From Saccharofermentanales bacterium (GTDB taxonomy: Bacteria; Bacillota; Clostridia; Saccharofermentanales; DTU023), in assembly GCA_041655695.1 (NCBI GenBank), contig JBBAEW010000001.1, positions 30,999-94,998 of the forward strand: DNA of 64,000 nt. The letters are read 5' to 3'. How positions within the stretch are numbered: position 1 is the first letter of the stretch; each line of letters opens with the position of its first letter. Made by a program: the position numbers and the translations under genes. Below, one piece after another: positions 17,722-64,000 of this stretch. The notes below the pieces were generated by a model. That model made no database searches and was not told where the DNA came from. It was given only the letters and a program-made list of their open reading frames with translations.

Positions 17722-18465
17722 CTAGAGAAGGAGGAAGATGCCTCCGCCGATGGAAAAGAGACCGCCGATCAGTTGGACGGCATAGACGATGATTGTGAAG
17801 CGCTGGTCGGGGACCTTGTAGTGGAGGCGGTTGCCCAGGAGAAATGCCAGGACAACCAGGGGCAGCGCATAGAGGATCCAAAGCCAGGTAGACTCCGTGT
17901 AGGCCCTCAGATAAAAAACGCGAAAGGCTATGGAAAGGCTGATGGTCATGACCCAGACGGCCGACATGGTCGCCCGGAAGACACTTTTGTTCTTGATCCG
18001 GGTCAGGGCGTAGACATTAACCAGGGGCCCGCCCATGGAGAACATGGCCTCAACCAGAGCGCCAAGAGCCAAAGAAGTATAGGCCACCCAGGCCGGCAGG
18101 TCGGAATCATCCCGCCTGATCAGCCGCCTCCACAGCTCATGACCAGCCACCAGGGTCACAACGGAACCGGTCGTCAGCCGCAGCAGCCATTCGAAGGGAC
18201 GGATCCAGGCGTAGAGCAGGTAGCCCAGAGGAAGCAGGGGCAGGACACAGACAGCCATAATCAGGAATTCGCGCCAGTTGATCTTGCGAAGCTGGGTTGT
18301 GAAGATCAGAAGGCAGAGAACAAAACCGGTGGTGGCCAGGAGGTTGATGGACCGCTCCGTGCCCAGAATAAGGGACAGGATAGGGATGCCGATGGAGGTT
18401 GAACCGAAACCAACAATGGTTTCAAGAACAAGCATGGCAAAGAGGATAATAAAAAAAGAGATCAT
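17722..18465 (-). CDS. TSUP (TauE/SafE) family permease, paralogue 2 of tandem array
   Basis: 247-aa ORF with the same motif set (VGFGSTSIGIP, EAMFSMG, FRATM). Confidence 0.85.
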   Translation of the reverse strand: MISFFIILFAMLVLETIVGFGSTSIGIPILSLILGTERSINLLATTGFVLCLLIFTTQLRKINWREFLIMAVCVLPLLPLGYLLYAWIRPFEWLLRLTTGSVVTLVAGHELWRRLIRRDDSDLPAWVAYTSLALGALVEAMFSMGGPLVNVYALTRIKNKSVFRATMSAVWVMTISLSIAFRVFYLRAYTESTWLWILYALPLVVLAFLLGNRLHYKVPDQRFTIIVYAVQLIGGLFSIGGGIFLLL

Positions 18466-18480: not shown

Positions 18481-19224
18481 CTAAACCAACAGCAAAATGC
18501 CGCCGGCTATGGAGAAGAGGCCGGAAACCAGCTGAACCAGGTAGACGACGTGGGCGAATTTTTCGTTTGGAATCCGCTTGTGCAGTCGATTGCCCACGAA
18601 AAAGGCGGCAAAAATCAAAGGCAGGGAGTAAAGGATATAGGTCCAGATTACTCTTGTATAGGCGTGGAGGACGAAGACGCGAAAGAGGAGAGACAGGCTG
18701 TTGGTGATCAGCCAGACCATGATCATGGTTGCCCGGAAGGCGCTTTTGTCTTTGATCCGTGTCAAGGCATAGACATTGATCAGGGCTCCGCCCATCGAAA
18801 ACATGCCCTGGACCACAGCCCCGATACCGAAGGCAGTATAAACAAACCATTTGGGCGGGTCACCGGGGTCTTTACGGATCATACGCCGCCAGATTTCACG
18901 GCTGGCCACCAAGGTAACTACCGACCCCATGATCAGGCGCAGGGCCCATTCCATGGAGCGCAGCTGGGTGTAGAGCAAATAGCCCACAGGCATAACAGGG
19001 ATGACAAAGGCCAGGATGATCAGGAGCTGGCGGACCTGCACCTTTTTATATTGACTTGAGGCGATAATGAGACAGAGGACGAGTCCTGCTCCAGAAAGCA
19101 GCGCAACCGATGTTTCCGTTCCCAAAGCCAGAGCCAGCAGGGGGATGCCGATAGAAGTCGATCCGAATCCGGCGATTGACTCCAGTACCTGCATGAGAAA
19201 TACAACAATAAAATAAATGAACAT
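18481..19224 (-). CDS. TSUP (TauE/SafE) family permease, paralogue 1 of tandem array
   Basis: ORF 18481..19419 trimmed to ATG 19224 (MFIYFIVVFLMQVLESIAGFGSTSIG), which aligns with the starts of the other two paralogues and gives 247 aa. Confidence 0.8.
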   Translation of the reverse strand: MFIYFIVVFLMQVLESIAGFGSTSIGIPLLALALGTETSVALLSGAGLVLCLIIASSQYKKVQVRQLLIILAFVIPVMPVGYLLYTQLRSMEWALRLIMGSVVTLVASREIWRRMIRKDPGDPPKWFVYTAFGIGAVVQGMFSMGGALINVYALTRIKDKSAFRATMIMVWLITNSLSLLFRVFVLHAYTRVIWTYILYSLPLIFAAFFVGNRLHKRIPNEKFAHVVYLVQLVSGLFSIAGGILLLV

Positions 19225-19396
19225 GAAGTCCCGCCACCTCTGTCTCCATAGGGGCACTGTCATCAGACAATGCGCTTGCCATGATTCTACTACGAGACGC
19301 CCCCGACCTGTACCATCTGCAAGAGTATTTAAAGCCCATAGGCTATAATTTAGGCAAAAGAGGCGGACTGCCTTGACAGGGAAAAGGGAGCATGAA

Positions 19397-33480: not shown

Positions 33481-33785
33481 GACTGTTTCCCCCCTTCCTT
33501 GGATTTGCTGCTGTGGAACATGCGGAGCATGCGATCCGTTACCCCAAAGCCGCCGACGACGTTAATCATGGCCAGCACGATGGCAATGAAGCCCATAATT
33601 TTGCTGCCCCAATGGGCGGCTGCGGCGGTCGCTGAAAGGCAGCCCAGGACCGTGACACCGGAAAAAGCGTTCATGCCCGACATCAGCGGCGTATGCAGCA
33701 AACTGGGTACACGGTTGATAATCTTATAACCGACCAGGGTTGCCACAACAAAGACAGCGATCAGAATCCCCTGTGTTGTTGTCAT
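33477..33785 (-). CDS. pntAB: NAD(P) transhydrogenase subunit alpha part 2 (membrane)
   Basis: ORF 33477..33875 trimmed to ATG 33785 (MTTTQGIL) behind AAGGAG. Has LHTPLMSGMNAFSG and NVVGGFGVTDRML motifs and an ATGA overlap with pntB. Confidence 0.85.
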   Translation of the reverse strand: MTTTQGILIAVFVVATLVGYKIINRVPSLLHTPLMSGMNAFSGVTVLGCLSATAAAAHWGSKIMGFIAIVLAMINVVGGFGVTDRMLRMFHSSKSKEGGKQS

Positions 33786-33828
33786 AGAAAACTCCTTGCA
33801 ATTTTGACGTTCATATTTCTCCCCACAG

Positions 33829-33856
33829 AAAAAGGCCGCACCCCGAAGGGTGCGGC
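33829..33856 (-). terminator. strong intrinsic terminator inside the pnt operon (between pntAA and pntAB)
   Basis: Minus strand GCCGCACCC-TTCG-GGGTGCGGC (9-bp GC-rich stem, UUCG tetraloop) followed by C then T5. Lies 16 nt after the pntAA stop. Confidence 0.75.
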
Positions 33857-33871
33857 TTCCTGTGGCGACTA

Positions 33872-35038
33872 TCAATGACCAAGTGCGGCGAAAGCCTCCA
33901 GCGCCCCCTGATGGACGACTTTCCCCTGGTGGGTGGTCAGGGCGCTCTGGACGATTTCATCATCCATATCCAGATGGATGCTGCCGTCTTTAACCAGATA
34001 CTTGAGCAGATTGTAAACGTTCTGGGCGAACATCCAGGTCGAGCTGGTGGGCAGCAGGCCCGGGATATTCTTGATACCGATCAGGGTCACGCTGTGCTTG
34101 ACCTCGATGGTGCCGGGCGGGGTGATCTCGCAGTTGCCGCCCTGGTCGATGGAGATATCGACGATAGCGGAACCCGGCTTCATGGTCTTGACCATTTCCT
34201 CTGTCAGCAGGTTGGGAGCAAGCTTGCCGGGGACCAGAGCCGCCAGGAAAATAATATCCATATCCTTGACGTGCTCGGCCAGAAGGCGGCGCTCCTCTTC
34301 CAGGCGTTTCTCGGACAGGGCCAGGGCGTAGCCTCCCTCACCGATGGCCTCCTGGGCAGGAACCTTGAGATCAATGATCTTGGCGCCAAGTGACATGGCC
34401 TGTTCAGCAGCATCGGGCCGGATATCCGCAGCGTAGACCACGGCGCCCAGACGCTTGGCTGTCGCGATTGCCTGCAGTCCGCCGACGCCGGCGCCGATGA
34501 CCAGGACGTTGATGGGCTTGATCATGCCGACAGCGGTGAAGATCTGCGGGACGAAGTTGGGCAGTTCATTGGCAGCGATCAGCATGCCCTTATAGCCGGC
34601 GCAGGTGCTCATGGAGGTCAGGGCGTCCATGACCTGGGCGCGGGTGATCCGGGGGATCCCGTCCAGCGTGATGCTGGTCACGCCCTGGGCGGCCATGTGC
34701 TTGACCATGTCATGATTGACCGGAGCCGCGGGGTGGATGAAGGTGATCAGGGTCTGTCCCTCATGCATCATGTCAACTTCGTGTTTGCCCTGCTCTTTGT
34801 TAAAGAGGGGCTCCTTGACTTTCAGGATAACGTCAGCGCGTTCAAAGAGCTTGCTGACATCTTCGACAATTTCAGCTCCGGCAGCCGCGTATTCCGGATC
34901 GTGGTAGAAAGCCCCCTCACCGGCATTCTTCTCGACCAGGACGGTCAAGCCGTCACCTACCATCTTTGCGACTGTTTCAGGCGAGGCGGCAACGCGACGC
35001 TCCCCCGGCATGATTTCCTTTGGGACACCGATAATCAT
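33872..35038 (-). CDS. pntAA: NAD(P) transhydrogenase subunit alpha part 1 (dI, NAD(H)-binding)
   Basis: 388-aa ORF with an alanine-dehydrogenase-like fold (IGVPKEIMPGERRVA, VLVIGAGVGGLQAIATAKRLGA). Confidence 0.92.
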   Translation of the reverse strand: MIIGVPKEIMPGERRVAASPETVAKMVGDGLTVLVEKNAGEGAFYHDPEYAAAGAEIVEDVSKLFERADVILKVKEPLFNKEQGKHEVDMMHEGQTLITFIHPAAPVNHDMVKHMAAQGVTSITLDGIPRITRAQVMDALTSMSTCAGYKGMLIAANELPNFVPQIFTAVGMIKPINVLVIGAGVGGLQAIATAKRLGAVVYAADIRPDAAEQAMSLGAKIIDLKVPAQEAIGEGGYALALSEKRLEEERRLLAEHVKDMDIIFLAALVPGKLAPNLLTEEMVKTMKPGSAIVDISIDQGGNCEITPPGTIEVKHSVTLIGIKNIPGLLPTSSTWMFAQNVYNLLKYLVKDGSIHLDMDDEIVQSALTTHQGKVVHQGALEAFAALGH

Positions 35039-48755: not shown

Positions 48756-50042
48756 CTAAAAGAAGGTACTCTTCAAGAATGAGATGAAAGACCAAACACC
48801 GACGATTGAGAACGCAAAACCAACCGCAATCGTTAACCTATGGAACCAGCCGATAGCATATTTCCCCATGATTTTTTTACTTGTTGAAATATAAAACAAA
48901 GAAGCAATAATGAATGGGGTGAACAAATTGAGAATGCCCATCGCGATCATAATGACAATGAAAGGTGCAACGACCTTAGCAACCAGGGGGCCGAGCAGCC
49001 AACTGACCATAGTCAGACCTGACAGGATTTTGAATCTTGTGTCGCTGTGGATGTCTCCGTCGATCAACGCCTTTTCTTCATCACCTTTTGTTTTGAAGTT
49101 TAGCAGGTCAGCGACATAGTATCCTGTACCGAAACAAGGCGATACAGCCGTTGACCAAACTACCGCAAAGAAACCGAGAGAGAATAACCATTTGGCCGCT
49201 GATCCTCCGATAGGCGCCAAAGCGTTTGCAGCTTGGATTGCGTTTTGTACCGGAGCGGCACCAGGAGCGTGGAGGGCCGATCCGGCGAGCAGGACGCTAA
49301 CCGAGATCAAGCTGAATGCTACTCCAAGGAACATGATATTGTCCCATCTCATGACGGGCAGGTCTTCCTTTTTGAAGCCAGCCGCCTTGACCTGATAGGG
49401 ATAGAAAAGCATGGGTAGACCACCGATCGATCCACCAATTATGCCGGTCACCGCAATCAGGCTGCCTGCGGGTATCGTGGGTACCAGACCTGACAGCGCT
49501 TCAAAGAAATTGATTTTCACGAAGAAGATGTTGAGGACGAACAGAACGACCATGGCTCCTACAATGACTGATATCATAGACTTGATAAAGCTATACTTCC
49601 CTCGAAGAACCATGAAAAACAAACTGATAACCAGCAGAATCAGAGTAGAGAGGAAAGTTGAAAGATTAGGGAAGAAGACCTTAAATGCATCTGCCATCCC
49701 GACGGATACACCAATTACCGCCCCGATATTGCATACAACTTGCACCCACCCATTAACTTTTCCCCATCCCTTAAACACGTGCCTGTCGAGAGCTTGAAGA
49801 GTCGTTTTTCCAGTGACTACTGTTACCGTGCCTGCCATCATCGTAAGAGCGGCAAGCCAAACTCCTGACAGGGCCACAAGCCAAAGCAGATTGAGCCCGA
49901 ATCCGGAGCCGGCGAACAATGTCGAAGACATCGTGCCGGGCCCGATCTGAACCCCTGCTACTAAGGCGCTACTTCCGAGAGCCCTCAGCCAAAGCTGAAA
50001 ACTACTCCCTCTTTTCTTTGTGTTCAATTGCACCTCTGACAT
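48756..50042 (-). CDS. Nramp-superfamily-like transporter with non-canonical TM1 motif
   Basis: 428-aa polytopic ORF. LRALGSSALVAGVQIGPGTMSSTLFAGSGFGLNLLWLV aligns with the Nramp TM1 region, but DPGN is replaced by GPGT. Confidence 0.6.
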   Translation of the reverse strand: MSEVQLNTKKRGSSFQLWLRALGSSALVAGVQIGPGTMSSTLFAGSGFGLNLLWLVALSGVWLAALTMMAGTVTVVTGKTTLQALDRHVFKGWGKVNGWVQVVCNIGAVIGVSVGMADAFKVFFPNLSTFLSTLILLVISLFFMVLRGKYSFIKSMISVIVGAMVVLFVLNIFFVKINFFEALSGLVPTIPAGSLIAVTGIIGGSIGGLPMLFYPYQVKAAGFKKEDLPVMRWDNIMFLGVAFSLISVSVLLAGSALHAPGAAPVQNAIQAANALAPIGGSAAKWLFSLGFFAVVWSTAVSPCFGTGYYVADLLNFKTKGDEEKALIDGDIHSDTRFKILSGLTMVSWLLGPLVAKVVAPFIVIMIAMGILNLFTPFIIASLFYISTSKKIMGKYAIGWFHRLTIAVGFAFSIVGVWSFISFLKSTFF

Positions 50043-50086
50043 TTTTTGCCTCCTTTTGCTTAAGTGCTAATGTCACCTCCGGCTGT

Positions 50087-51106
50087 TTATTGGTAGCCTT
50101 TCACTATATTGATTAGGCGGCCCAATCTTTCTATCTCAACTTCTAAAACATCCTCAGCTTTCAACAAGATACTTTTTCCCGCGTACATGTGGTCAAAGAG
50201 TTTGTCAGTAGCGCTATAGCCGACGTTGGCTCCTTTGGCCATTCCCACGCCAGCGCCCGTTCCAGTGGCGATGACATCGCCAGGTGACAGAGTCGTGACT
50301 GATGATGCCGTTGCGATCAATTCGGCAACACTCCACACCATCAGATTGGTATTCGTATTTTGCATGATCTCGCCGTTTAGGTAGAGTCTGATTGATAGGT
50401 TGTCAATATCAGGAATAAACTGTGCAGGGGTTATATAAGGCCCCAAAGGCCCGAAGGTATCATTGCCTTTATTGGAAAACCAATCAAAATCAAAAGTTTC
50501 ATCGTGCCGTATCATGCGATCTCTAGCCGAGATATCGTTGTAGCAGGTGTAACCGGCTACATAATCAAGAGCTTTTTCAGCCGGAACATCTTTTGCAGAT
50601 TTCCCGATAACAATTGCCATTTCAGCTTCCCAATCCACAAAATTAGAGCGGGGTGTTAGCCTGATGGGGTCACCATGGCCAATGATGGTGTGCGTGCGGC
50701 CTTTGTAGAAAAAATAAGGTTCATGACCATCTTTTTTCGGTTTGGCTGCGCCCATTTCTAAAGCATGATCATAGTAATTAGAACCAGCATTCAGGATCTT
50801 GTCTGGGTATAGAACAGGAGGCTTGAATGCGATATCGTCCTCTTCGTAAACAAAAGATTCGGTACGGCTTGGGTTGTCATTGTAGAATCCTGCCATCTCT
50901 CCCAGAAGATTATTAAACAACTCCCATTCTTCCAAAATATCGAGCATAGTGTAGTTATGTTTAGCCTTGAATAAATCACGCTTGCCCGTTCTCATCTTGT
51001 AGTATTCATACCCACGGTTAATATCATAAAGAGAACTGTTGATCTCGATAACGGGGAATACAAATCCTCGGTGGTCGACTGTTGCTAGCTTAAATACAAG
51101 TGACAC
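50087..51106 (-). CDS. fumarylacetoacetate hydrolase (FAH) family protein
   Basis: ORF with GTG start behind AGGAGGG and a C-terminal FAH fold (VDWEAEMAIVIGK, YTCYNDISARD, LSPGDVIATGTGAGVG). Confidence 0.8.
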   Translation of the reverse strand: MSLVFKLATVDHRGFVFPVIEINSSLYDINRGYEYYKMRTGKRDLFKAKHNYTMLDILEEWELFNNLLGEMAGFYNDNPSRTESFVYEEDDIAFKPPVLYPDKILNAGSNYYDHALEMGAAKPKKDGHEPYFFYKGRTHTIIGHGDPIRLTPRSNFVDWEAEMAIVIGKSAKDVPAEKALDYVAGYTCYNDISARDRMIRHDETFDFDWFSNKGNDTFGPLGPYITPAQFIPDIDNLSIRLYLNGEIMQNTNTNLMVWSVAELIATASSVTTLSPGDVIATGTGAGVGMAKGANVGYSATDKLFDHMYAGKSILLKAEDVLEVEIERLGRLINIVKGYQ

Positions 51107-51207
51107 AATTTCCCTCCTGCTGTCTGAGATAATTTCATTTAGTAGCCTTACTTGTTATACATCTGTTCGCACTTGTCCTAAACAGACAGATCAGGCCTGG
51201 GATTGGC

Positions 51208-52224
51208 TTAATATCCTTCCACTTTGTTTTCTAATTGACCGACTTCATCGATATCGACAACAACCGTATCACCATCCTTGAGCATGATGCTCTTTCCGGC
51301 ATACATATGTTCGAATACCTTCCAAATTTCTCCGTGTTTGACTTTGATGCCTTTGCCCATTCCTACTCCAGCTCCCGTACCAGTAGCGATGATATCTCCA
51401 GGTGAAAGAGTTGTGACGGAAGAAGCAGTTTCAATCAGCTCGGCGATATCCCAAACCATCAAATTCGTATTTGTGTCTTGCATGAGTTCGCCATTAAGGT
51501 ACAATTTGACAGGCAGGTTGTTGGGATCGGAAATAAATTTCGAGGGGACGATGTAGGGTCCTAGTGGACCAAAGGTGTCATTCCCTTTATTTGAGAACCA
51601 GTCATAATCAAAAGTCTCATTCTTCCTTATCATGCGATCTCTACCGGAAATATCGTTGTAGCAGGTATATCCGGCTACGTATTCCAGTGCGTCTGAGGCG
51701 CTGACATTTTTAGCTGTTTTTCCGATCACAATAGCCAGTTCGGCTTCCCAGTCAATGTATTTGGCGCGAGGAGTTAGCCGGATTACATCCTTGTGACCAA
51801 TGATCGTATGTGTCCTACCTTTATAAAAGAAGTAAGGTTCATGGCCTTCTTTTTCTGGTTTGGCAGCGCCCATTTCCAATGCGTGATCGTGATAGTTCGA
51901 ACCGGCATTGAGAATTTTGTCGGGATAGAGGATGGGCGGTTCGAACTTAACTTCATCAACATCGAAGAAGAAATCAAAATCTTTACCGATATCAGGCCTA
52001 TAGAAAGCGCTTAATTCATCGCAAATATCTTCAAAAAGAGACCATTTCTCTAATATGTCGAGCATAGTGTAGTTGTAGTTTTTCATGAATAGATCTTGCT
52101 TGCCCACAACCTCTTTATAGTGATTGTAGCCATGACTGATCGATATTAATTTCCCATCTACTTCGATTACGGGGAAAGTGAATCCGCGATATGTAACTGT
52201 CGCCAGTTGGTACCTATTTTTCAT
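51208..52224 (-). CDS. fumarylacetoacetate hydrolase (FAH) family protein, tandem paralogue
   Basis: ORF collinear with 50087..51106 over its full length with high identity (same motifs). Confidence 0.8.
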   Translation of the reverse strand: MKNRYQLATVTYRGFTFPVIEVDGKLISISHGYNHYKEVVGKQDLFMKNYNYTMLDILEKWSLFEDICDELSAFYRPDIGKDFDFFFDVDEVKFEPPILYPDKILNAGSNYHDHALEMGAAKPEKEGHEPYFFYKGRTHTIIGHKDVIRLTPRAKYIDWEAELAIVIGKTAKNVSASDALEYVAGYTCYNDISGRDRMIRKNETFDYDWFSNKGNDTFGPLGPYIVPSKFISDPNNLPVKLYLNGELMQDTNTNLMVWDIAELIETASSVTTLSPGDIIATGTGAGVGMGKGIKVKHGEIWKVFEHMYAGKSIMLKDGDTVVVDIDEVGQLENKVEGY

Positions 52225-52323
52225 CTCTGACTGCCTCCATGTTTCTGTTTAAATTTGTCGATCGTCAATTTGACGGAATCTTAGCGAGTCGGCAATAAAT
52301 ACACTTACTCGCCTTCAAACCTG

Positions 52324-52369
52324 AAAAAAAAACCAGTGCACGTTTCAAACAAGCTGATACCCGCACTGG
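52324..52369 (-). terminator. putative terminator after the molybdoenzyme operon
   Basis: Minus strand CCAGTGC...GCACTGG (7-bp stem, large 23-nt loop) followed by T9. Confidence 0.45.
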
Positions 52370-52504
52370 CCAGCACGACGGCAACTTTGACTGTCTCCAT
52401 CGTACCTTCCATATGTGATTATTGTTCGGTTGACCTCTCGAAAGGTGCAACCCAACCAGTTAATATTTCAAGTTTCTGTACTAATTATAATGCAGCGTTC
52501 ATGC

Positions 52505-53497
52505 CTAGTCAAAGATAGCCGTGATTTTGTCAATAAGATCGAGAATGTTGCTGAAACTGTTCCGCTTTGTCTTTATAGACAGGCCAGCTTCTCTGACTAA
52601 GGCACTTTTTTGGGTCAGTTCTGCGAGCGCTTGTTTCTCAATATCATCACGTTCTTTTGATAATGAGTTAAGCGTTGTAAGTATTTTTGATTGAGTTTCT
52701 GTAAGTTCAATCGGTTCTGGAGCGACAGCCCCAACAATAATTCGCAGTCCCGGTTGAACAGAGTCAGGTGTGAATTTAAAGGCCATGTTGATAATGGGAA
52801 AGTTAAGTGAATCTCTTAAGCTTTGTTTTTGGAACTCAGCCAATGCCCCGGGCTTACATTCAGGAATGAAGAAACCCTCAATGATGAAATCTTGGCTTTG
52901 GATCAGGCCATTGATTTCGATATGTGATGCGATCAGATCATCGATGGGGATTTCTCTTCTGATACCGTCGAAGATAATTGCGGTTGCATCAAGGCTGATC
53001 AGGACCGGAGCTATATCGGAATAGTAGAGTGCTTTACAAACAGGGGATCGTGGAGCCTGATGGCAAACATCTCCACCGATTTTGAAGCATGGGGCAAGAT
53101 TTTCGCGCCATTGCGACGACTGATTGAAATAGATACATCTTCGATCCTGCAGGATATTTCCGCCAATTGTCGCGCTATTCCTTATCTGTGGGGTCGCTAC
53201 TCTTCGGGCAGCTTTTACCAGAGATGGAAACCTTGTTGCCACCAGGGCACTGTCAGCGATTTCTCGTAATGTGACCATGGATCCTATGCGGATACCTTTT
53301 TCTATCGGATCGATTCTTTTCAGTTCATCCAGATTCGCCAGACTTATGATAGCTACCGGTGCTTTTAGATTATATTTGAGCAGAGGAATGAAATCGGTTC
53401 CCCCGGCTAGATAACTGGAATTCACAACTTGATTCTTTTTCTGAAAGGCTTCCTTCAAAGTATCAGGAGCGAAAAAGTTAAAACCGTCCGTTCTCAT
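52505..53497 (-). CDS. xanthine dehydrogenase family FAD-binding subunit (CoxM/XdhB-like)
   Basis: 330-aa ORF with the FAD_binding_5 pattern (YLAGGTDFIPLLK, ATIGGNI). Confidence 0.85.
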   Translation of the reverse strand: MRTDGFNFFAPDTLKEAFQKKNQVVNSSYLAGGTDFIPLLKYNLKAPVAIISLANLDELKRIDPIEKGIRIGSMVTLREIADSALVATRFPSLVKAARRVATPQIRNSATIGGNILQDRRCIYFNQSSQWRENLAPCFKIGGDVCHQAPRSPVCKALYYSDIAPVLISLDATAIIFDGIRREIPIDDLIASHIEINGLIQSQDFIIEGFFIPECKPGALAEFQKQSLRDSLNFPIINMAFKFTPDSVQPGLRIIVGAVAPEPIELTETQSKILTTLNSLSKERDDIEKQALAELTQKSALVREAGLSIKTKRNSFSNILDLIDKITAIFD

Positions 53498-53535
53498 CTC
53501 TTATGTCCTTTCTACTTACCTTATCGCGCTAAAGA

Positions 53536-55794
53536 TTAACTATTTGATCCCTTGGGATAATAGGTATGCGTGATAGGGATAGCGGTCATATAGGTCCCGG
53601 TTGCGTTATAGATGGCGTTGACAATGGCGGGAGCTACCGGAGGGGTCGGGAGTTCACCAACACTCTTCGCACCGAAAGGGCCCGTCGACTCATAGCTTGT
53701 GACAATGTGCGTGTGAATAGCGGGCATATCGAGAGCAAGGGGGGTGTTGTAGTGAAGCAGATCTGAAGAAAGAACTTTCTTGGTTATCCTGTCAATCTCA
53801 ATCTCCTCCGTCAGGGCATAACCTAATCCCATACTGATACCACCGTGAATCTGGCCTTCGACGACATCAGGATTAATTGGTTGTCCTACATCCACGGCCT
53901 GAATAATGTGCTTAACCTGAACGCTCTTGGCTCGTTCATCAACAGCAACTTTTGCCCAACATACTACAAATGACAGAGGATCATCGGCAGGTTTGTAGTT
54001 TGAAGACCCTGTGATGATCTCATAACCCGTCTTGAGAGTCAGCATCTCCATAACTTCTTTCAAGTCCATGTCGAAATTCTTACGTCCACTATTCAGGGTG
54101 AATCGCCCCTTTGCGAAACCAATCTCTTTCCCGTCAACACTGTATAGCCGAGCTAGTCGCTCTTTTGTTTTATGAATGCAGTCTTCTACAGCCTGAGTAA
54201 CGGCGTTGCCAGCTCGGTAGGCTTGGCTGCTTGCGACGGTTCCTGTCTCATAAGGTGTGATCTCTGTATCAGCTGCGATGATGGTGATATCATTCAGATC
54301 AATCCCAAGTCCTTCAGCAGCGATTTGACTTAAGATTGTTTCGCTACCCTGACCGATATCGGCTGAACCTGTCAACAAGCTGACTGTGCCGTCTGAATTA
54401 ATCATAATCAGGCAACCGCTCGCATCCGCAATTGTTCCAGCCCCACTGGGATGGCATCCAAATGCTACGCCCCAGGCCTCTTTAATATGGTTGCTTTCAG
54501 GCTTTTTTTGATTTGCTCCTAGGTCAATATTCTTCCGAATTTGTTCTGCTTCGACGATGCATTCTTCCATGGCGCAACTGAATACTGTCTTTTCAGAGCC
54601 AGGGATTTTATCACCGGAGTTAACATGATTCTTCCGCCGAAAATCAACGGGGTCAAGCTGTAAGGCTTTGGCGATTTTCTCGAACATTACTTCCCGTGCA
54701 AAGGTTGCTTGGGGATTACCAAATCCCCTCATGGCACCGCCTGGGACGTGGTTTGTGTAAATTGCATAGCCTCTGCCAAGAAAATGTGGGATCTTGTAAT
54801 TGGTGAAAGCGAGGCTGATATTGACAACAATTCCTGCTACGTTTGCGTAAGCGCCACTGTTCAGATAGTTGTCAACAAGCATGGCTTTCAAATAGCCTTC
54901 CCTTGAGACTCCGATTTTAAGTTTCATTTTTGCGCTATGCCGCACTGTAGATCCGTACATCTGCTCTTCTCGGGAGTTGATAATCTTGACTGGCCTTCCG
55001 AGTTCCTTCGAAAAAATGGCAGCAACAGGTTGGTTATGTATCTGTTGTCTTTCTCCGAAGCCTCCACCCATAATCGGCTTGATAACGCGGATGTCGTTTT
55101 CTCTCATTTCCAGAAGCCTTGCCAGGAGACGCTTGTCTTTGAAAGGGCTTTGCGAGGTGCTGATAATTGTAAGCTTGCCACCATCGGAATAATTACAGAT
55201 GCAGCCGTTTGGTTCCAGTGAAATATTTTGAACGGTGGGGACGGAAAATTCATCTTCAAAAATGTAATCAGACTCTGCAAAACCTTGATCGATGTCACCT
55301 CTCTTTAGCTCTTTTTTGTAGAAAACATTGGAATCGAATAAATCAGGATGGAGCAAGTCAGCATCTTCTTTCATTGCTTCAAGCACGTCGAATACCGGTT
55401 TTAAAATTTCATACTCTATAACAAGTTTGTCAAGCGCCTCCTGACAGGCGATTTCGCTCGTCGCCGCAACGGCAGCGATTCTGTCTCCCATGAATAGAGG
55501 GTGGTCAGTCAGGATGGTTTGATCTTCTATAAATACCGGCGATTGAGTTATGACGGCACTATTATATAGCCTTTGGGGAACATCTTGTGGCAATAAAATT
55601 TTCAGCACTCCTGGAACCTTCTCGGATTCGGTCTTGTCGATGCTAATTACTTTGGCGTGCGAATAAGGACTTCTTTTCACCATCGCATAAACCATATTGG
55701 GCAAGGTATAGTCATCAGTGTATTTCGCCGTCCCGTTTATTTTTCTTACAGCTTCAAGTCGGGGATAGGAATCCCCTACCACTCTCAGCGCCAT
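53536..55794 (-). CDS. xanthine dehydrogenase family molybdopterin-binding large subunit
   Basis: ORF 53536..55815 (TTG) trimmed to ATG 55794 behind GGAAGGAG. Has an aldehyde oxidase/XDH a/b hammerhead and Mo-binding domains (GGGFGERQ, GNPQATFA, GQGSETILSQIAAE, GAKSVGE). Confidence 0.88.
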   Translation of the reverse strand: MALRVVGDSYPRLEAVRKINGTAKYTDDYTLPNMVYAMVKRSPYSHAKVISIDKTESEKVPGVLKILLPQDVPQRLYNSAVITQSPVFIEDQTILTDHPLFMGDRIAAVAATSEIACQEALDKLVIEYEILKPVFDVLEAMKEDADLLHPDLFDSNVFYKKELKRGDIDQGFAESDYIFEDEFSVPTVQNISLEPNGCICNYSDGGKLTIISTSQSPFKDKRLLARLLEMRENDIRVIKPIMGGGFGERQQIHNQPVAAIFSKELGRPVKIINSREEQMYGSTVRHSAKMKLKIGVSREGYLKAMLVDNYLNSGAYANVAGIVVNISLAFTNYKIPHFLGRGYAIYTNHVPGGAMRGFGNPQATFAREVMFEKIAKALQLDPVDFRRKNHVNSGDKIPGSEKTVFSCAMEECIVEAEQIRKNIDLGANQKKPESNHIKEAWGVAFGCHPSGAGTIADASGCLIMINSDGTVSLLTGSADIGQGSETILSQIAAEGLGIDLNDITIIAADTEITPYETGTVASSQAYRAGNAVTQAVEDCIHKTKERLARLYSVDGKEIGFAKGRFTLNSGRKNFDMDLKEVMEMLTLKTGYEIITGSSNYKPADDPLSFVVCWAKVAVDERAKSVQVKHIIQAVDVGQPINPDVVEGQIHGGISMGLGYALTEEIEIDRITKKVLSSDLLHYNTPLALDMPAIHTHIVTSYESTGPFGAKSVGELPTPPVAPAIVNAIYNATGTYMTAIPITHTYYPKGSNS

Positions 55795-55795
55795 C

Positions 55796-56329
55796 TTATA
55801 CTCCTTCCTTTTCAAGGGATTTCTTCACTCGCATCTCTTCTGCCGCATCTGCTACCGCTTCAACGATCTTGGTGTAGCCAGTGCAGCGGCAAAGATTTCC
55901 TGAGATTGCTTCCTTAATTTCAAATTCAGTTGGATCGGGATTGTTGTCAAGAAGATCCTTGGCCGCCATGATCATACCTGGGGTGCAGAAGCCACACTGA
56001 ACTCCCCCGAGTTTGGCGAAAGATTTTTGTAATGGATGGAGATCTTGATCACAAGAGATACCTTCAATCGTTATGACGCTCTTTTGATCCACTTGTGCAG
56101 CCAGTGTGGTACACGCATAAACGGCTCGTCCATTCAGAAGGACAGTGCACGCACCACAATGACTGCTATTACAAGCATTTTTAGTGCCCAAAAATCCTAT
56201 TTCTCTTCTCAGTAGTTCAAGTAACGTCAGCTCGGGACGAATTGAACATTCATGGAGTTGACCGTTGATGTGCAATGTTATGACGAGCATTTGACGTTCT
56301 CTTCCAAGGGGGTTCATTTTATCTAGCAT
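55796..56329 (-). CDS. xanthine dehydrogenase family [2Fe-2S] small subunit
   Basis: ORF with cysteine motifs [11 protein letters not shown] and CGFCTPGM...[17 protein letters not shown] 7 nt before ATG 56329. Confidence 0.9.
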
Positions 56330-56350
56330 CTCAGTGCTCTCCTTTTCCGA

Positions 56351-56400
56351 AAATAAAAAGGCCGGTACACCAATTGCCGCAACAATTGTATGTACCGACC
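56351..56400 (-). terminator. intrinsic terminator in the leader immediately upstream of the molybdoenzyme operon (candidate attenuator)
   Basis: Minus strand GGTCGGTACA...TGTACCGGCC (10-bp stem including one G-U) followed by CTTTTTATTTT. The U-tract ends about 6 nt before the SD of the first operon gene. Confidence 0.65.
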
Positions 56401-56525
56401 AATATGATAACTATAACTATTTATCACACCTGCCGACACAAAATCGGTTTTAGTTGAAATTCTATTTGTGTAAAAATTCAACCAAAATTAAGGTTGGGAA
56501 AGGCTCTCCCCTGTCGATAAGAGTA

Positions 56526-56870
56526 TCATCTTTCGATCATTTTATCAAGAATAAACAAAAAATAAAGCGTATCTTTCTCGATCGAAAGCTTGCTGAGAAA
56601 ATCAATGACCTTGCAGCCTAGGAGTCGCTCAACTTCAGCAGCGTGATGCTCTTGGCATCGTGCTTTGATAATCTTTCGAAGTTTACCTATCAGTTCGATT
56701 CCATCACTCGTATGAAGCAGGCTCGTCTCCAGGGGTGTGAAAATTCCATTGAACTCGACGACGATGTAGTTTTTGGTCACACCTACGTTAGTCTGGACGG
56801 GTCCCTTCCCCACATCATCCTTATAAAGCTTTATGAAGCTTTCCCTCAGTTGCACCTCAAGTGGCTTCAT
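56526..56870 (-). CDS. DUF2294-family small protein
   Basis: 114-aa ORF. The pattern DDVGKGPVQTNVGVTKNYIVVEFNGIFTPLE...GCKVIDFLS...LYFLFILD matches my recollection of the DUF2294 consensus. [10 protein letters not shown]. Confidence 0.6.
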   Translation of the reverse strand: MKPLEVQLRESFIKLYKDDVGKGPVQTNVGVTKNYIVVEFNGIFTPLETSLLHTSDGIELIGKLRKIIKARCQEHHAAEVERLLGCKVIDFLSKLSIEKDTLYFLFILDKMIER

Positions 56871-61856: not shown

Positions 61857-62384
61857 ATGCAGGATATTTTACTGGTTGTCGATATGCAGGAGGATTTCGT
61901 GGACGGCTCCCTGGGGACCCTCGAGGCGCGCTCGATCGTTGCCAATGTGGTCCGGAAGATGGAGAACCATCAGGGTCCCGTCATCTTTACCCAGGATACG
62001 CACGGTCCCGATTATCTTGAGACCCAGGAGGGCAGGATGCTCCCCGTCGAGCACTGCATCCGCGGCAGCCGGGGCTGGCAGATCGTCCAGGAAGTGGCCC
62101 AGGCCCGTCAGGGGCGGATTATTGAGAAGGATACCTTCGGCGCCCGCGACCTGCCCGGCCTTCTGATGGAAATGAATGAGGAAGACCCCATCTCCTCCAT
62201 CACTCTGGTGGGCCTTTGCACGGACATCTGTGTCATCTCCAATGCCATGCTGATCAAGGCCTTCCTGCCGGAAGTACCTATTATCGTCGACTCGGACTGC
62301 TGCGCGGGCGTCACACCACAAAGCCACCAGGTGGCCCTGGATGCCATGAGAGTCTGCCAGATTCAGGTGACCGGCCCGGCTTAA
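61857..62384 (+). CDS. isochorismatase-family cysteine hydrolase (nicotinamidase-like)
   Basis: ORF 61695..62384 trimmed to ATG 61857 behind AAGGAGG. Has LLVVDMQEDF and the catalytic Cys region LVGLCTDICV. Confidence 0.8.
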   Translation: MQDILLVVDMQEDFVDGSLGTLEARSIVANVVRKMENHQGPVIFTQDTHGPDYLETQEGRMLPVEHCIRGSRGWQIVQEVAQARQGRIIEKDTFGARDLPGLLMEMNEEDPISSITLVGLCTDICVISNAMLIKAFLPEVPIIVDSDCCAGVTPQSHQVALDAMRVCQIQVTGPA

Positions 62385-62731
62385 AGAAGGCCGTCGTAGT
62401 CGCCTTCCCTGTAGCCGATCAGGACCTGATCATCCAGAACAAAGAGCGGCCTTTTAACCAGAAAACCGTCGGTGGCCAGAATTTCGATCATCTGATCCTC
62501 GCTCATGAGCGGCAGCTTGTCCTTGAGACCCAGCTGCCGGTATTTGATTCCGCTGGTATTGAAAAAGCTTCTGGCGGGTTTGCCGCTGCGGGTGATCCAG
62601 GTTTTCAGCTCCTGGCTTGTCGGCCTCTCCTCGTGGATGGGCCGGTAGGTGTAAGGGATTTTGTGCTCATCAAGGAACCTCCTTGCTTTTCGGCAGGTCA
62701 TTCACTTGGGATAACAGAGAAAGAGATTCAT
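62381..62731 (-). CDS. ArsC/Spx-family thiol-redox protein, predicted selenoprotein (TGA codon 10 read as Sec)
   Basis: ORFs 62702..62989 (tail ...MNLFLCYPK) and 62381..62701 (MTCRKARRFLDEHKIPY) are in the same frame, separated only by TGA (62702..62704). Joined, MNLFLCYPK-U-MTCRKARRFLDEHKIPY aligns with Spx [36 protein letters not shown] is 7 nt before ATG 62731, and there is no SD before ATG 62701. Confidence 0.65.
62671..62685 (-). promoter_or_regulatory. candidate bacterial SECIS stem-loop
   Basis: The mRNA reads CAAGGA-GGU-UCCUUG starting 16 nt after the UGA. The apical loop contains GGU about 22 nt downstream of the UGA. A flanking UGC/GCA lower helix is possible. Confidence 0.45.
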
Positions 62732-62753
62732 CCTTCCGCTCCTTTCACAGGGG

Positions 62754-64000
62754 TCAAAGCCCCAGCTGCTGCCTGGCTTTGATGTAGTCTTGGGGTGTAT
62801 CCAGATCCAGGCCGCCCTGCCAGTCGGGGTCGGGGATCTCCATGATGGCTTCCTGGTGGCGGCCCAGGATCTGACGGCCGCCCGCGTCACCCGTAAGCAG
62901 AGATAATTCCGGATAGTAGAGCCGGTCAAAGAGTACGGGTGAGGACCGGTGACCCTGGCGGACAGGGACCATGATCTGCCCCTCCTCATGGGCCTCCAGG
63001 AGATGGCGGATCAGGCGGGGGGAGATCAGGGGCTGATCGCCCGGGACAAAGAAACAGACACGGCTTTGCGGGTCCAGCTCCTGGACCCCGCAGGCAACCG
63101 ATGTCCCCTGGCCCTCCCGGTAGCGGTCGTTTGTGACAAGGGCGGTCCGGATTCGTCCGGCCTTCTTCCCTGCCAGCAAAGGTTTCAGGTTTTCCCTTAT
63201 TTTTTCGCTGTCATGGCCGGTTACAATGACAAGATCACTGATGGGCTGATCCAGAAGCTGCCGGACGGTCCGGGAGATAACTGTTTCCTCCCCCAGTTTG
63301 AGGAGGAGTTTGTTTGCCCCCTCCATGCGGCTGGAAAGGCCGGCCGCCAGGACCAGGGCTGAGATGACGGGGGATGTCCGCCCCTCCTGCCGGCAGCTAT
63401 AGAACGTTCTTGATTCAGAGTCGGTCCGGCCCTGAAAGAAAAGAGCGTCGACCCGGTCCATGGCCAGCAGTTCTTTGGCCAGGGCCTCCAGACGTTCAGG
63501 GGTCCGGTCTTCCGGACGCAGGTGGTCGCATTGATTAAAGACCAGGGCGACTTTGCTGGAAAGGGGAATACCTTTCCAGAAATGACCGCTTTTAAGAAGG
63601 CGGAGCAGGTGACCAAAAAGGACAGGCTGTCCCTGCTTAAGGCCGGCTTTTTCCGAGAAGATCCCGCTTCGATGGACCAGGCTTTCATCCAGAGGCTGGC
63701 CCAGGGCCGAGAGGCCGAAAACGATCAGGGTCAAATCCGTTGTTCTGGGAATGACCGGTTCGTGGGGGGCATGTGCCTTGAGGGCTTTGCGCTTGGAGCC
63801 GTCCGCCTCGCAAAGGATCAGGGAGGACGAATCCGAGAGGCGGCGGCGGTCCCTGACCCAGCCGTCCAGGAGGTCCCGGTCAATACCCTGATACTTGCCT
63901 GGTATCTCCTGCAGGGCAGATCCCAGCCAAAGGCCGGACCGGCCGTCCGGTTCAGGAAGCAATTTTGTCAGATCCGGGTTCTCTTTCTGTTTTGGGGTCA
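62754..64000 (-). CDS. YqeC-like selenium-cofactor accessory domain fused to MobA/MocA-like molybdenum cofactor nucleotidyltransferase (5' end outside window)
   Basis: The ORF frame stays open to the window edge. The N-terminal part (CEADGSKRKALKAHAPHEPVIP) resembles YqeC. Residues ~198-402 (nt 62757..63371) show the NTP_transf_3 pattern LVLAAGLSSRMEGANKLLL...VPGDQPLI. Confidence 0.6.
   Translation of the reverse strand, partial: TPKQKENPDLTKLLPEPDGRSGLWLGSALQEIPGKYQGIDRDLLDGWVRDRRRLSDSSSLILCEADGSKRKALKAHAPHEPVIPRTTDLTLIVFGLSALGQPLDESLVHRSGIFSEKAGLKQGQPVLFGHLLRLLKSGHFWKGIPLSSKVALVFNQCDHLRPEDRTPERLEALAKELLAMDRVDALFFQGRTDSESRTFYSCRQEGRTSPVISALVLAAGLSSRMEGANKLLLKLGEETVISRTVRQLLDQPISDLVIVTGHDSEKIRENLKPLLAGKKAGRIRTALVTNDRYREGQGTSVACGVQELDPQSRVCFFVPGDQPLISPRLIRHLLEAHEEGQIMVPVRQGHRSSPVLFDRLYYPELSLLTGDAGGRQILGRHQEAIMEIPDPDWQGGLDLDTPQDYIKARQQLGL

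What the first reader, a model, noticed from the sequence alone, without database searches (positions are those of the whole stretch)
62381..62731. In-frame TGA at the CxxC position of an ArsC/Spx-family gene: probable selenoprotein
Two track ORFs lie in the same frame, separated only by TGA (62702..62704). Read through, the product is MNLFLCYPK-[TGA]-MTCRKARRFLDEHKIPYTYRPI..., 116 aa. That is the normal size for the ArsC/Spx/YffB family (PF03960). The TGA falls exactly where these proteins carry the first Cys of the N-terminal CxxC (Spx: [10 protein letters not shown]). The upstream ATG (62731) has a good SD (AAAGGAG, 7-nt spacer). The ATG right after the TGA has none, and starting there would remove the first beta-strand and the redox residue. 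Sixteen nt after the UGA is the hairpin CAAGGA-GGU-UCCUUG, with a G-containing apical loop at the distance typical of bacterial SECIS elements. To my recollection ArsC-like proteins are on published lists of prokaryotic selenoprotein families. A standard gene caller would truncate or split this gene.
Basis: partly seen in the sequence, partly recalled or inferred. Interest (0 to 1): 0.7.

Follow-up and report, generated by a model that had tools for sequence, protein, structure and literature searches.

The report
Selenocysteine-containing ArsC/Spx-family redox protein gene
A small thioredoxin-fold gene that gene callers truncate at an in-frame TGA is almost certainly a real selenoprotein with selenocysteine in place of the first active-site cysteine; this selenoprotein type is already published, so it is a correct but unsurprising find.

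Summary

- **The gene:** on the minus strand, 62731..62381 reads MNLFLCYPK-TGA-MTCRKA…, 116 codons.
- **Position of the TGA:** full-length homologues (about 60 % identity) start MxFLCYPK-C-[ST]TC. The TGA therefore lies on the nearly invariant first Cys of the CxxC motif, at the N-cap of helix α1.
- **Not an error:** four independent metagenome assemblies of the same species carry the TGA.
- **Conserved elsewhere:** 32 orthologues in GTDB genomes carry it too. They form 18 clusters at 70 % identity, mostly Clostridia. Five are close Mageeibacillus-clade relatives with no nearby alternative start codon.
- **Selection:** both sides of the TGA are under purifying selection.
- **Sec machinery:** a same-species contig (3 mismatches in 6,860 bp) has tRNA-Sec 3.7 kb upstream, just beyond the window end, next to yqeB and yqeC/mocA.
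- **No reassignment:** TGA is otherwise a normal stop codon here (11 of 46 genes).
- **Hairpin:** the post-UGA hairpin is not significant in this gene alone. As a class, Sec forms have longer stems and G-first loops compared with matched Cys forms.

selA, selB and selD could not be searched for. UxxC ArsC-like selenoproteins are already in published lists, so this is a new member of a known kind. The biochemical substrate is unknown.

The parts
62381..62731 (-). Complete coding sequence of the ArsC/Spx-family (TIGR01617, 3gkx-like) selenoprotein: 116 codons including Sec10, plus a TAA stop at 62381..62383
   Evidence: The closest solved structure is 3gkx at E 5.5e-34.
62702..62704 (-). In-frame TGA read as selenocysteine (residue 10, first position of the U-M-T-C redox motif)
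   Evidence: It aligns with the nearly invariant Cys10. The TGA is identical in 4 independent assemblies and is present in 32 orthologues.
62693..62695 (-). TGC codon for Cys13, the presumed resolving cysteine of the UxxC motif
   Evidence: This column is invariant in alignments A1 and A3.
62729..62731 (-). True start codon ATG
   Evidence: The N-terminus MNLF[LV]CYPK is conserved in the clade, with many synonymous and almost no non-synonymous changes.
62739..62745 (-). Shine-Dalgarno sequence AAAGGAG, 7 nt upstream of the ATG
   Evidence: Read directly. Similar GGAAAGG-type sites lie upstream of the ATG in the five clade relatives.
62671..62685 (-). Candidate bacterial SECIS hairpin CAAGGA-GGU-UCCUUG (6 bp stem, 3-nt loop starting with G), 16 nt after the UGA
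   Evidence: Present. It is identical in four of the five clade relatives; L015 has loop GUU. All 33 Sec forms have a stem of at least 5 bp here, against 51 of 95 Cys forms. Loops start with G in 27 of 33 Sec forms against 5 of 51 Cys forms. It is not significant for this gene alone.
62699..62701 (-). ATG (Met11) directly after the UGA. This is the false start used by gene callers, it has no ribosome-binding site, and it is unique to this species.
   Evidence: Met at this position occurs in 1 of 33 Sec forms and 0 of 95 Cys forms. Clade relatives have GGG here.
62754..64000 (-). Upstream gene yqeC/mocA fusion (selenium-dependent molybdenum hydroxylase maturation). It is cut by the window end and its stop lies 22 nt before the selenoprotein ATG, so the two are probably co-transcribed.
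   Evidence: The full-length 497-aa form is on L002, where the YqeC model TIGR03172 scores 116.6 bits against a cutoff of 73. The adjacency is conserved in L018, L020, L030 and L037.

Best explanation
The gene at 62731..62381 (minus strand) encodes a 116-residue thioredoxin-fold protein of the ArsC/Spx/YffB superfamily. It belongs to the uncharacterised CxxC subfamily TIGR01617, represented by structure 3gkx.

Codon 10, UGA, is decoded as selenocysteine, which gives a U-x-x-C redox motif at the N-cap of helix α1. Translation starts at the ATG at 62731, which has a Shine-Dalgarno site. At the UGA, SelB carrying Sec-tRNA(Sec) is recruited by a short hairpin in the mRNA 16 nt downstream (62685..62671, loop GGU) and inserts Sec instead of terminating.

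The protein then most likely acts as a catalytic reductase. Sec10 would be the attacking nucleophile and Cys13 the resolving residue, forming a selenenylsulfide. The substrate is unknown.

Shown here: homology, the position of the TGA, its conservation, purifying selection on both sides, tRNA-Sec in the same organism, and class-level enrichment of a G-loop hairpin. Inferred: actual Sec insertion, presence of SelA, SelB and SelD, the chemistry, and the substrate.
For: **Position and fold**
- The TGA aligns with nearly invariant Cys10, and the 9 upstream codons match the family N-terminus MxFLCYPK.
- Family models score above their cutoffs. 3gkx matches at E 5.5e-34.
- The AlphaFold model of the gap-free homologue P0019 has pLDDT 96, β1 at residues 3-6 and α1 at residues 11-22.

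**Not an error, and not recent**
- The TGA is identical in 4 independent metagenome assemblies, including strains about 97 % identical at the DNA level.
- 32 of 34 genome hits to YPK-TGA-xTCxKA are intact orthologues. Together with the window and the metagenome Sec form L100, the Sec forms fall into 18 clusters at 70 % identity.

**Selection**
- dN/dS is 0.08-0.21 downstream of the TGA. In the 9 upstream codons dN is about 0-0.1 while synonymous change is saturated.
- Clade relatives have GGG after the TGA and no in-frame start codon for 32-52 codons.

**Sec decoding capacity**
- tRNA-Sec is found by ARAGORN and by Rfam RF01852 (70.8 bits against a gathering score of 47) on L002 and L003.
- L002 is the same organism as the window, with 3 mismatches in 6,860 bp.
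- yqeB and yqeC/mocA lie in the same cluster.
- TGA is a normal stop codon in 11 of 46 genes.

**SECIS hairpin**
- Synonymous-codon resampling gives mean z -1.21 for Sec forms and -0.18 for Cys forms, p 7e-6.
- A stem of at least 5 bp occurs in 33 of 33 Sec forms and 51 of 95 Cys forms.
- Paired with the nearest Cys relative, Sec forms have stems 1.4 bp longer, p 3e-4. The loop starts with G in 27 of 33 Sec forms against 5 of 51 Cys forms.

**Literature**
- UxxC ArsC-like selenoproteins are already reported.
Against: - No selA, selB or selD is in the window, and the rest of the genome could not be searched.
- The hairpin of this gene alone is not better than shuffled sequence (z 0.07) or than synonymous recoding (z -0.88, p 0.2).
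- RNAalifold gives no consensus structure. Column-wise covariation is weak: 78.8 % of cells paired against 76.3 % in shuffles, reached by 40 of 500 shuffles.
- The window clade's hairpin sits 2 nt out of register with the majority.
- No curated Rfam SECIS family matches.
- The Sec-versus-Cys statistics are only partly corrected for relatedness.
- An ATG directly follows the UGA in this species, so a truncated product is physically possible.
- There is no experimental evidence of selenium incorporation, and the substrate is unknown.
Confidence: 0.88

Rival explanations
1. Pseudogene or N-terminally truncated protein. A TGC/TGT to TGA nonsense mutation inactivated the gene, or the cell makes only the 106-residue product from the ATG at 62701, as gene callers annotate it.
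For: - A single base change turns a Cys codon into TGA.
- An ATG directly follows the TGA.
- Public gene calls give the 106-aa product (P0001).
- The hairpin is not individually significant.
Against: - The TGA is conserved in 5 same-species copies and in 32 orthologues from other genomes, all with intact reading frames.
- The 9 upstream codons and their ribosome-binding site are under purifying selection.
- Relatives have no start codon after the TGA for 32-52 codons.
- The ATG at 62701 has no ribosome-binding site.
- A Met11 start would remove β1 and the active-site residue of a thioredoxin fold.
Confidence: 0.04
2. Read-through without selenocysteine. The UGA is decoded by a near-cognate or suppressor tRNA (Trp, Cys or Gly), or UGA is reassigned in this lineage.
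For: Selenium insertion has not been shown directly. selA and selB have not been seen.
Against: - TGA terminates 11 of 46 Pfam-supported genes in the window, including tuf and pckA, at full model length.
- A canonical tRNA-Sec with anticodon TCA lies 3.7 kb away and is 100 % conserved across the clade.
- The TGA replaces a redox Cys specifically, and a G-loop hairpin is enriched in TGA forms only.
Confidence: 0.03
3. Dual output. The gene is a selenoprotein, but in this species the UGA-AUG junction also allows termination and re-initiation. This would yield a truncated single-Cys protein when selenium is scarce.
For: Met at the position after U is unique to this species: 1 of 33 Sec forms and 0 of 95 Cys forms. 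Getting from the clade's GGG to ATG needs two base changes.
Against: - There is no ribosome-binding site.
- The truncated product lacks β1 and would probably misfold.
- A single lineage-specific substitution can be chance.
Confidence: 0.05

Closest known systems
ArsC-like / 'arsenate reductase 2' (UxxC) selenoprotein families from computational selenoproteome surveys (Zhang et al. 2006, PMC1794560; GOS survey 2008, PMC2398784; review 2022, PMC9312934)
   Same: The protein has a thioredoxin-fold ArsC superfamily domain (PF03960/COG1393). Sec replaces the first Cys of an N-terminal CxxC motif. Cys-type homologues greatly outnumber Sec forms: 238 to 42 in GOS, and 120 to 1 in my row-capped metagenome sample.
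   Different: The published examples are from Deltaproteobacteria and marine metagenomes, and I could not retrieve their sequences to test orthology. The present gene is from a Mageeibacillus-related Clostridia lineage. It lies in a selC-yqeB-yqeC/mocA cluster.
NCBIfam NF041106 'ArsC family (seleno)protein' (ArsC_rel_Se_1)
   Same: It belongs to the same superfamily and is a selenoprotein-aware model.
   Different: The window protein scores 18.9 bits against a cutoff of 85. Other Sec forms score 27-31 bits. This is therefore a different subfamily, and the model that does match (TIGR01617) is not flagged as a selenoprotein model.
Structural-genomics proteins 3gkx, 2m46 and 3fz4 ('putative ArsC family related protein')
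   Same: These are the closest solved relatives (E 5.5e-34 to 2.5e-25). They have the same length and the same YP-C-xTC-KA N-terminus and FFNTSG and KRP motifs.
   Different: They carry Cys, not Sec, and their function is also unknown.
Spx (Bacillus subtilis redox-sensing RNA polymerase-binding regulator; 1z3e)
   Same: It has a CxxC motif at the same position and the same fold. The matching NCBIfam model TIGR01617 is named 'Spx/MgsR family'.
   Different: The Spx-specific models are far below their cutoffs (46.6 bits against 123). The PDB match is only E 2e-9. The protein is 116 aa, not about 131, so it lacks Spx's C-terminal extension. RNA polymerase binding was not tested.
Glutaredoxin-coupled arsenate reductase ArsC (R773 type) and YffB
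   Same: Same superfamily, with an N-terminal nucleophilic Cys.
   Different: TIGR00014 scores 38.5 bits against a cutoff of 106, and the YffB model NF008107 scores 46.6 bits against 121. By my recollection, true ArsC has a single catalytic Cys rather than CxxC.

Membership tests
Bacterial selenoprotein (UGA decoded as Sec) | In-frame UGA aligned with Cys in homologues (a Cys/Sec pair) | tested here: met
   The TGA lies on nearly invariant Cys10. 109 matched Cys-type family members were found in metagenomes.
Bacterial selenoprotein (UGA decoded as Sec) | Sequence conservation on both sides of the UGA, and conservation of the UGA itself in orthologues | tested here: met
   32 TGA orthologues were found. 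dN/dS is low both upstream and downstream of the TGA.
Bacterial selenoprotein (UGA decoded as Sec) | SECIS stem-loop immediately 3' of the UGA, with G in the apical loop | tested here: inconclusive
   A hairpin is present 16 nt after the UGA with loop GGU. Class-level enrichment in Sec over Cys forms is strong. However, this gene alone is not significant, there is no alifold consensus and covariation is weak, and there is no Rfam match. bSECISearch was not available.
Bacterial selenoprotein (UGA decoded as Sec) | tRNA-Sec (selC) in the genome | tested here: met
   Found on same-organism contig L002 at 6162-6258 by ARAGORN and by Rfam RF01852 at 70.8 bits. L002 differs from the window by 3 mismatches in 6,860 bp. 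There is no tRNA inside the window itself.
Bacterial selenoprotein (UGA decoded as Sec) | selA, selB and selD in the genome | not testable with these tools
   They are absent from the 64-kb window and from the 7 kb of extra flank on L002. selD is implied by yqeB/yqeC (co-occurrence stated in PMC9312934).
Bacterial selenoprotein (UGA decoded as Sec) | Selenium demonstrated in the protein | not testable with these tools
   This needs 75Se labelling or mass spectrometry.
ArsC/Spx/YffB superfamily (Pfam PF03960) | Domain model scores above the gathering score | tested here: met
   59.8 bits against 24.
NCBIfam TIGR01617 arsC_related subfamily | Score above the curated cutoff | tested here: met
   102.4 bits against 75.05 with Cys substituted at the TGA. 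Four other Sec forms score 78-110 bits.
Spx transcriptional regulator | Spx-specific models score above cutoff | tested here: not met
   NF002459 scores 46.6 against 123, NF009885 34.1 against 152, and NF009210 31.8 against 159.
Glutaredoxin-dependent arsenate reductase ArsC | Equivalog model TIGR00014 scores above cutoff | tested here: not met
   38.5 bits against 106.05.
YffB-type ArsC family reductase | Equivalog model NF008107 scores above cutoff | tested here: not met
   46.6 bits against 121.
NCBIfam NF041106 ArsC family (seleno)protein | Score above the curated cutoff | tested here: not met
   18.9 bits against 85.

The most novel reading that the evidence does not exclude
The UxxC ArsC-like selenoprotein may be a dedicated component of the selenium-dependent molybdenum hydroxylase maturation pathway. 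It lies 22 nt downstream of yqeC/mocA, apparently in one operon with yqeB, and the cluster begins with selC. This arrangement is conserved in five species of the clade (the window organism plus four relatives). An XDH-type molybdenum hydroxylase operon lies 6 kb away. The selenoprotein could reduce or carry the selenium that YqeB and YqeC install on the molybdenum cofactor. That would give a first functional handle on both this uncharacterised ArsC subfamily and the poorly understood third selenium-utilisation trait.
Probability: 0.08. Interest if true: 0.6.

Novelty: new member of a known kind. Interest (0 to 1): 0.3.

Why it matters
**Annotation.** This gene and at least 32 orthologues, including those in three cultured gut Clostridia, are truncated or missed by standard gene callers. 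The NCBIfam model they match is not flagged as selenoprotein-aware, so the error will keep propagating.

**Biology.** The finding adds a Clostridia-wide, repeatedly arising Sec variant to an uncharacterised CxxC thioredoxin-fold subfamily. It also shows a compact selC-yqeB-yqeC/mocA-selenoprotein cluster in one clade.

**Limits.** It does not change how selenocysteine decoding is understood. UxxC ArsC-like selenoproteins have been listed since 2006-2008.

Tried and rejected
- **RNAalifold** on 33 Sec-form post-UGA segments gave no consensus structure. The named helix barely beat column shuffles. I therefore dropped strict covariation as evidence and used Sec-versus-Cys comparisons instead.
- **Rfam** gave nothing at gathering threshold. 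A sensitive scan of 62560-62760 gave only chance-level hits to unrelated families.
- **Other selenoproteins in the window:** I searched for other TGA-split genes. The only pair of real genes in one frame, 22466-23143 and 21293-22399, looks like two separate genes, because the downstream one has its own camelysin-type N-terminus.
- **No sel genes:** the window annotation found no selA, selB or selD.
- **Extending the window:** a look-up with the PEPCK protein found no exact record.
- **L003 artefact:** an apparent deletion in yqeB/yqeC on L003 turned out to be two 100-N scaffold gaps.
- **Not attempted:** I considered walking upstream of L002 with a database search to look for selAB. I judged the odds too low for the cost.
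Full report
**1. The observation**

On the minus strand the window reads ...AAAGGAG-CGGAAGG-ATG AAT CTC TTT CTC TGT TAT CCC AAG TGA ATG ACC TGC CGA AAA GCA AGG AGG TTC CTT GAT.... The ORF list shows two minus-strand ORFs in the same frame. One is 62702..62989, which ends ...MNLFLCYPK followed by TGA. The other is 62381..62701, which starts MTCRKA. Read-through translation gives 116 codons and a TAA stop.

No ribosome-binding site precedes the ATG at 62701.

The split alone is not remarkable. An in-frame TGA precedes an ORF of at least 80 codons 100 times in this window.

**2. Homology places the TGA on the active-site cysteine**

With Cys substituted at the TGA, the protein matches Pfam ArsC PF03960 (59.8 bits). 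It also matches NCBIfam TIGR01617 'arsC_related' at 102.4 bits, against a cutoff of 75.05.

A search of 5.8 billion proteins returned thousands of homologues of 115-117 aa at about 60 % identity. It also returned one 98 %-identical protein of 106 aa, which is the truncated gene call.

In the alignment the homologues begin M-x-F-L-C-Y-P-K-C-[ST]-T-C-x-K-A. The nine codons upstream of the TGA are therefore homologous, and the TGA falls on the nearly invariant Cys10.

The closest solved structure is 3gkx (E 5.5e-34), followed by 2m46 and 3fz4. All three are uncharacterised structural-genomics proteins. YffB (1rw1) and Spx (1z3e) are far more distant.

An AlphaFold model of P0019, a Cys homologue that aligns without gaps and has the same length, has pLDDT 96. 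It places β1 at residues 3-6 and helix α1 at residues 11-22. Residue 10 is thus the N-cap nucleophile position of a thioredoxin-fold CxxC motif. A start at Met11 would delete β1 and the redox residue.

**3. Not an error and not a recent nonsense mutation**

Four independent metagenome assemblies, from different samples and different assemblers, carry the gene with the identical TGA. One of them (L001) has two amino-acid substitutions. Another (L003) is about 97 % identical at the DNA level.

I scanned one genome per GTDB species for TAYCCNAARTGANNNACNTGYNNNAARGC, which encodes YPK-TGA-x-T-C-x-K-A. This gave 34 hits against roughly 4 expected by my own estimate. Thirty-two of them are intact orthologues that read through the TGA. 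They are mostly Clostridia:
- cultured isolates Bariatricus massiliensis AT12, Sellimonas caecigallum JCM 35759 and Faecalicatena faecalis AGMB00832;
- Lutispora, Alkaliphilus, Tissierella, Pelotomaculum and Oscillospiraceae;
- two Chloroflexota.

The closest relatives are five genomes of the Mageeibacillus clade, four labelled Mageeibacillus sp. and one (L018) Clostridiaceae. They read MNLFVCYPK-U-GTCRKARRFLDEH...

Within this clade dN/dS is 0.08-0.21 downstream of the TGA. The nine upstream codons have almost no non-synonymous change but saturated synonymous change. The five relatives have GGG after the TGA, and their next in-frame start codon is 32-52 codons downstream. Only read-through can give them a functional protein.

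The Sec forms, including the window, fall into 18 clusters at 70 % identity. Twelve of the 33 have a Cys form as nearest neighbour, which indicates repeated interchange between Cys and Sec. In a row-capped metagenome sample of the same motif with TGH at that codon, Cys forms outnumber Sec forms 120 to 1.

**4. Sec-decoding capacity of the organism**

The window contains no tRNA, no Rfam family, and no selA, selB or selD.

However, contig L002 matches the window over 6,860 bp with 3 mismatches, so it is the same organism, and it extends past the window's end. It carries a 97-nt tRNA-Sec with anticodon TCA. ARAGORN finds it, and so does Rfam RF01852 at 70.8 bits against a gathering score of 47. 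The position corresponds to window coordinate about 66,444-66,540. That is 3.7 kb upstream of the gene on the same strand.

The same tRNA-Sec, 100 % identical, lies in the same neighbourhood in L003, L020, L030 and L037.

The gene order is lgt - selC - CofE-like - yqeB - yqeC/mocA - arsC-like(U), followed by a convergent isochorismatase gene and then tuf. YqeB matches TIGR03309 at 323 bits. YqeB and YqeC are the markers of the selenium-cofactor trait, and SelD is the general signature of selenium use (PMC9312934), so selD is implied. selA and selB remain inferred from selC.

UGA is not reassigned. It terminates 11 of 46 Pfam-supported genes in the window, including tuf and pckA.

**5. The SECIS question**

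For this gene alone the hairpin is unremarkable:
- The 65-nt fold has z 0.07 against shuffles.
- The local fold has z -0.88 (p 0.2) against synonymous recoding.
- RNAalifold on 33 Sec forms finds no consensus.
- The commonest helix is paired in 78.8 % of cells against 76.3 % in shuffles, a value reached by 40 of 500 shuffles.

This is partly because the hairpin overlaps the conserved K-A-x-x-W/F-L codons, and because the window clade's hairpin is 2 nt out of register with the majority.

The informative test compares Sec forms with Cys forms matched on the same motif:
- Synonymous-recoding z averages -1.21 in Sec forms (n=33) and -0.18 in Cys forms (n=95), Mann-Whitney p 7e-6.
- A perfect stem of at least 5 bp within +12..+42 is present in 33 of 33 Sec forms and 51 of 95 Cys forms.
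- Among sequences with Trp at the W/F position, the free Ala third base and the base after it are pairing-competent in 17 of 21 Sec forms and 34 of 76 Cys forms, p 0.006.
- Paired with the nearest Cys relative, Sec forms have stems 1.4 bp longer (Wilcoxon p 3e-4) and a local MFE 2.4 kcal/mol lower (p 0.0014).
- The apical loop starts with G in 27 of 33 Sec forms and 5 of 51 Cys-form hairpins, p 2e-11.

As far as I recall the published bacterial SECIS model, this pattern fits it: a stem-loop shortly after the UGA with G in the apical loop. I could not run bSECISearch. I rate the SECIS as supported for the class and plausible for this gene.

**6. Mechanism**

The best explanation has these steps:
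- Translation starts at 62731.
- SelB carrying Sec-tRNA(Sec) is recruited by the hairpin at 62685..62671 and inserts Sec at codon 10.
- The 116-residue protein carries a U-M-T-C motif at the N-cap of α1.
- It works as a catalytic reductase through a Sec10-Cys13 selenenylsulfide.

The decoding part rests on the evidence above. The chemistry is inferred from the general behaviour of thioredoxin-fold CxxC/UxxC proteins. The substrate is unknown.

The protein is not Spx, YffB or true ArsC by curated cutoffs. It is also not covered by NCBI's selenoprotein-aware ArsC model NF041106, which scores 18.9 bits against a cutoff of 85. Other Sec forms also fail that model.

**7. Rivals**

- A pseudogene or a Met11-start product is contradicted by conservation of the TGA, of the upstream codons and of the ribosome-binding site. 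It is also contradicted by the lack of alternative starts in relatives and by the structural cost of losing β1.
- Non-Sec read-through or codon reassignment is contradicted by normal TGA stop usage, by the adjacent tRNA-Sec and by the Sec-form-specific hairpin signature.
- A dual-output idea, termination followed by re-initiation at the UGA-AUG junction, cannot be excluded. The Met after U is unique to this species (1 of 33 Sec forms, 0 of 95 Cys forms). There is no ribosome-binding site, however, and the product would probably be unstable.

**8. Comparison with what is known, and novelty**

- 'ArsC-like' is one of the 25 bacterial selenoprotein families in Zhang et al. 2006 (PMC1794560).
- The GOS selenoproteome lists 'Arsenate reductase 2, cd03032, UxxC' with 42 Sec and 238 Cys sequences (PMC2398784).
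- The 2022 review lists 'Arsenate reductase-like protein, COG1393, UxxC' (PMC9312934).

The finding is therefore a new member of a known kind. Two things appear to be unreported, though I could not check this exhaustively. One is the breadth of the Sec form in gut and anaerobic-digester Clostridia. The other is the selC-yqeB-yqeC/mocA-selenoprotein cluster in the Mageeibacillus clade.

That cluster is clade-specific. YqeB and YqeC homologues are found next to the gene in the window species and in L018, L020, L030 and L037. They are not found in any other retrieved Sec-form or Cys-form locus. A functional link to selenium-cofactor maturation is thus only a low-probability hypothesis.

**9. Verdict**

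My confidence that this is a genuine Sec-containing ArsC-superfamily protein is about 0.88. Interest is modest (0.3). The result is a correct re-annotation with a neat genomic context, not a surprise to specialists.

Noticed in passing
L002 6162-9948, equivalent to window about 62754-66540 on the minus strand (mostly beyond the window end): There is a compact selenium cluster: selC (tRNA-Sec), a CofE-like 411-aa gene, yqeB, the yqeC/mocA fusion, then the Sec-containing arsC-like gene. A sigma-70-like site (TTGACA-17-GACAAT) lies just upstream of selC. The cluster is conserved in four Mageeibacillus-clade genomes but is not found next to Sec forms of other lineages.
   Followed up: yes
window 62754-64000 (-): The yqeC/mocA fusion gene is cut by the window end. 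The ORF list's 402-aa TTG start is an artefact, and the full gene is 497 aa on L002.
   Followed up: yes
window 48756-56870 (-): A stretch with low GC (GC3 0.40-0.54, against about 0.70 elsewhere) holds an XDH-type molybdenum hydroxylase operon: 2Fe-2S subunit at 55796-56329, Mo subunit at 53536-55815, FAD subunit at 52505-53497. It also holds two paralogous FAA-hydrolase genes (50087-51106 and 51208-52224) and an Nramp transporter. It may be a horizontally acquired island, and it is the likely client enzyme of yqeB/yqeC.
   Followed up: partly
window 62699-62704 (-): The Sec codon is followed directly by ATG (UGA-AUG). Met at this motif position is unique to this species (1 of 33 Sec forms, 0 of 95 Cys forms), whereas clade relatives have GGG. 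This is why gene callers find a clean 106-aa ORF here. It could also allow re-initiation.
   Followed up: partly
L002 6162-6258; L003 1417-1513; L020 4609-4705; L030 343-439; L037 2904-3000: The 97-nt tRNA-Sec is 100 % identical in five loci from at least four species, although the neighbouring protein-coding genes have dS above 1.
   Followed up: partly
window 5631-6350 (+), 16919-17662 (-), 17722-18465 (-), 18481-19419 (-): There are four TauE/SafE-family (sulfite exporter-like) permease genes, three of them in tandem. Their substrate is unknown.
   Followed up: no
window 30862-33480 (-): The PntB transhydrogenase subunit is 872 aa, about twice the usual length. It has three PNTB-matching stretches and a TPP_enzyme_M-like region, and sits downstream of normal PntA-type genes (33477-35038).
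   Followed up: no
window 62381-62384: The selenoprotein gene and the convergent isochorismatase-family gene overlap by 4 nt at their stop codons, which leaves no room for a terminator between them.
   Followed up: no
L003 2967-3066 and 4483-4582: The apparent deletions in yqeB and yqeC/mocA in this strain are 100-N scaffold gaps, not real variants.
   Followed up: yes
window 21293-23143 (-): Two ORFs (225 aa and 368 aa) lie in the same frame, separated by a TGA and 22 codons. The downstream ORF has its own camelysin-like N-terminus and a lamin-tail domain. I judged them to be separate genes rather than a selenoprotein.
   Followed up: partly
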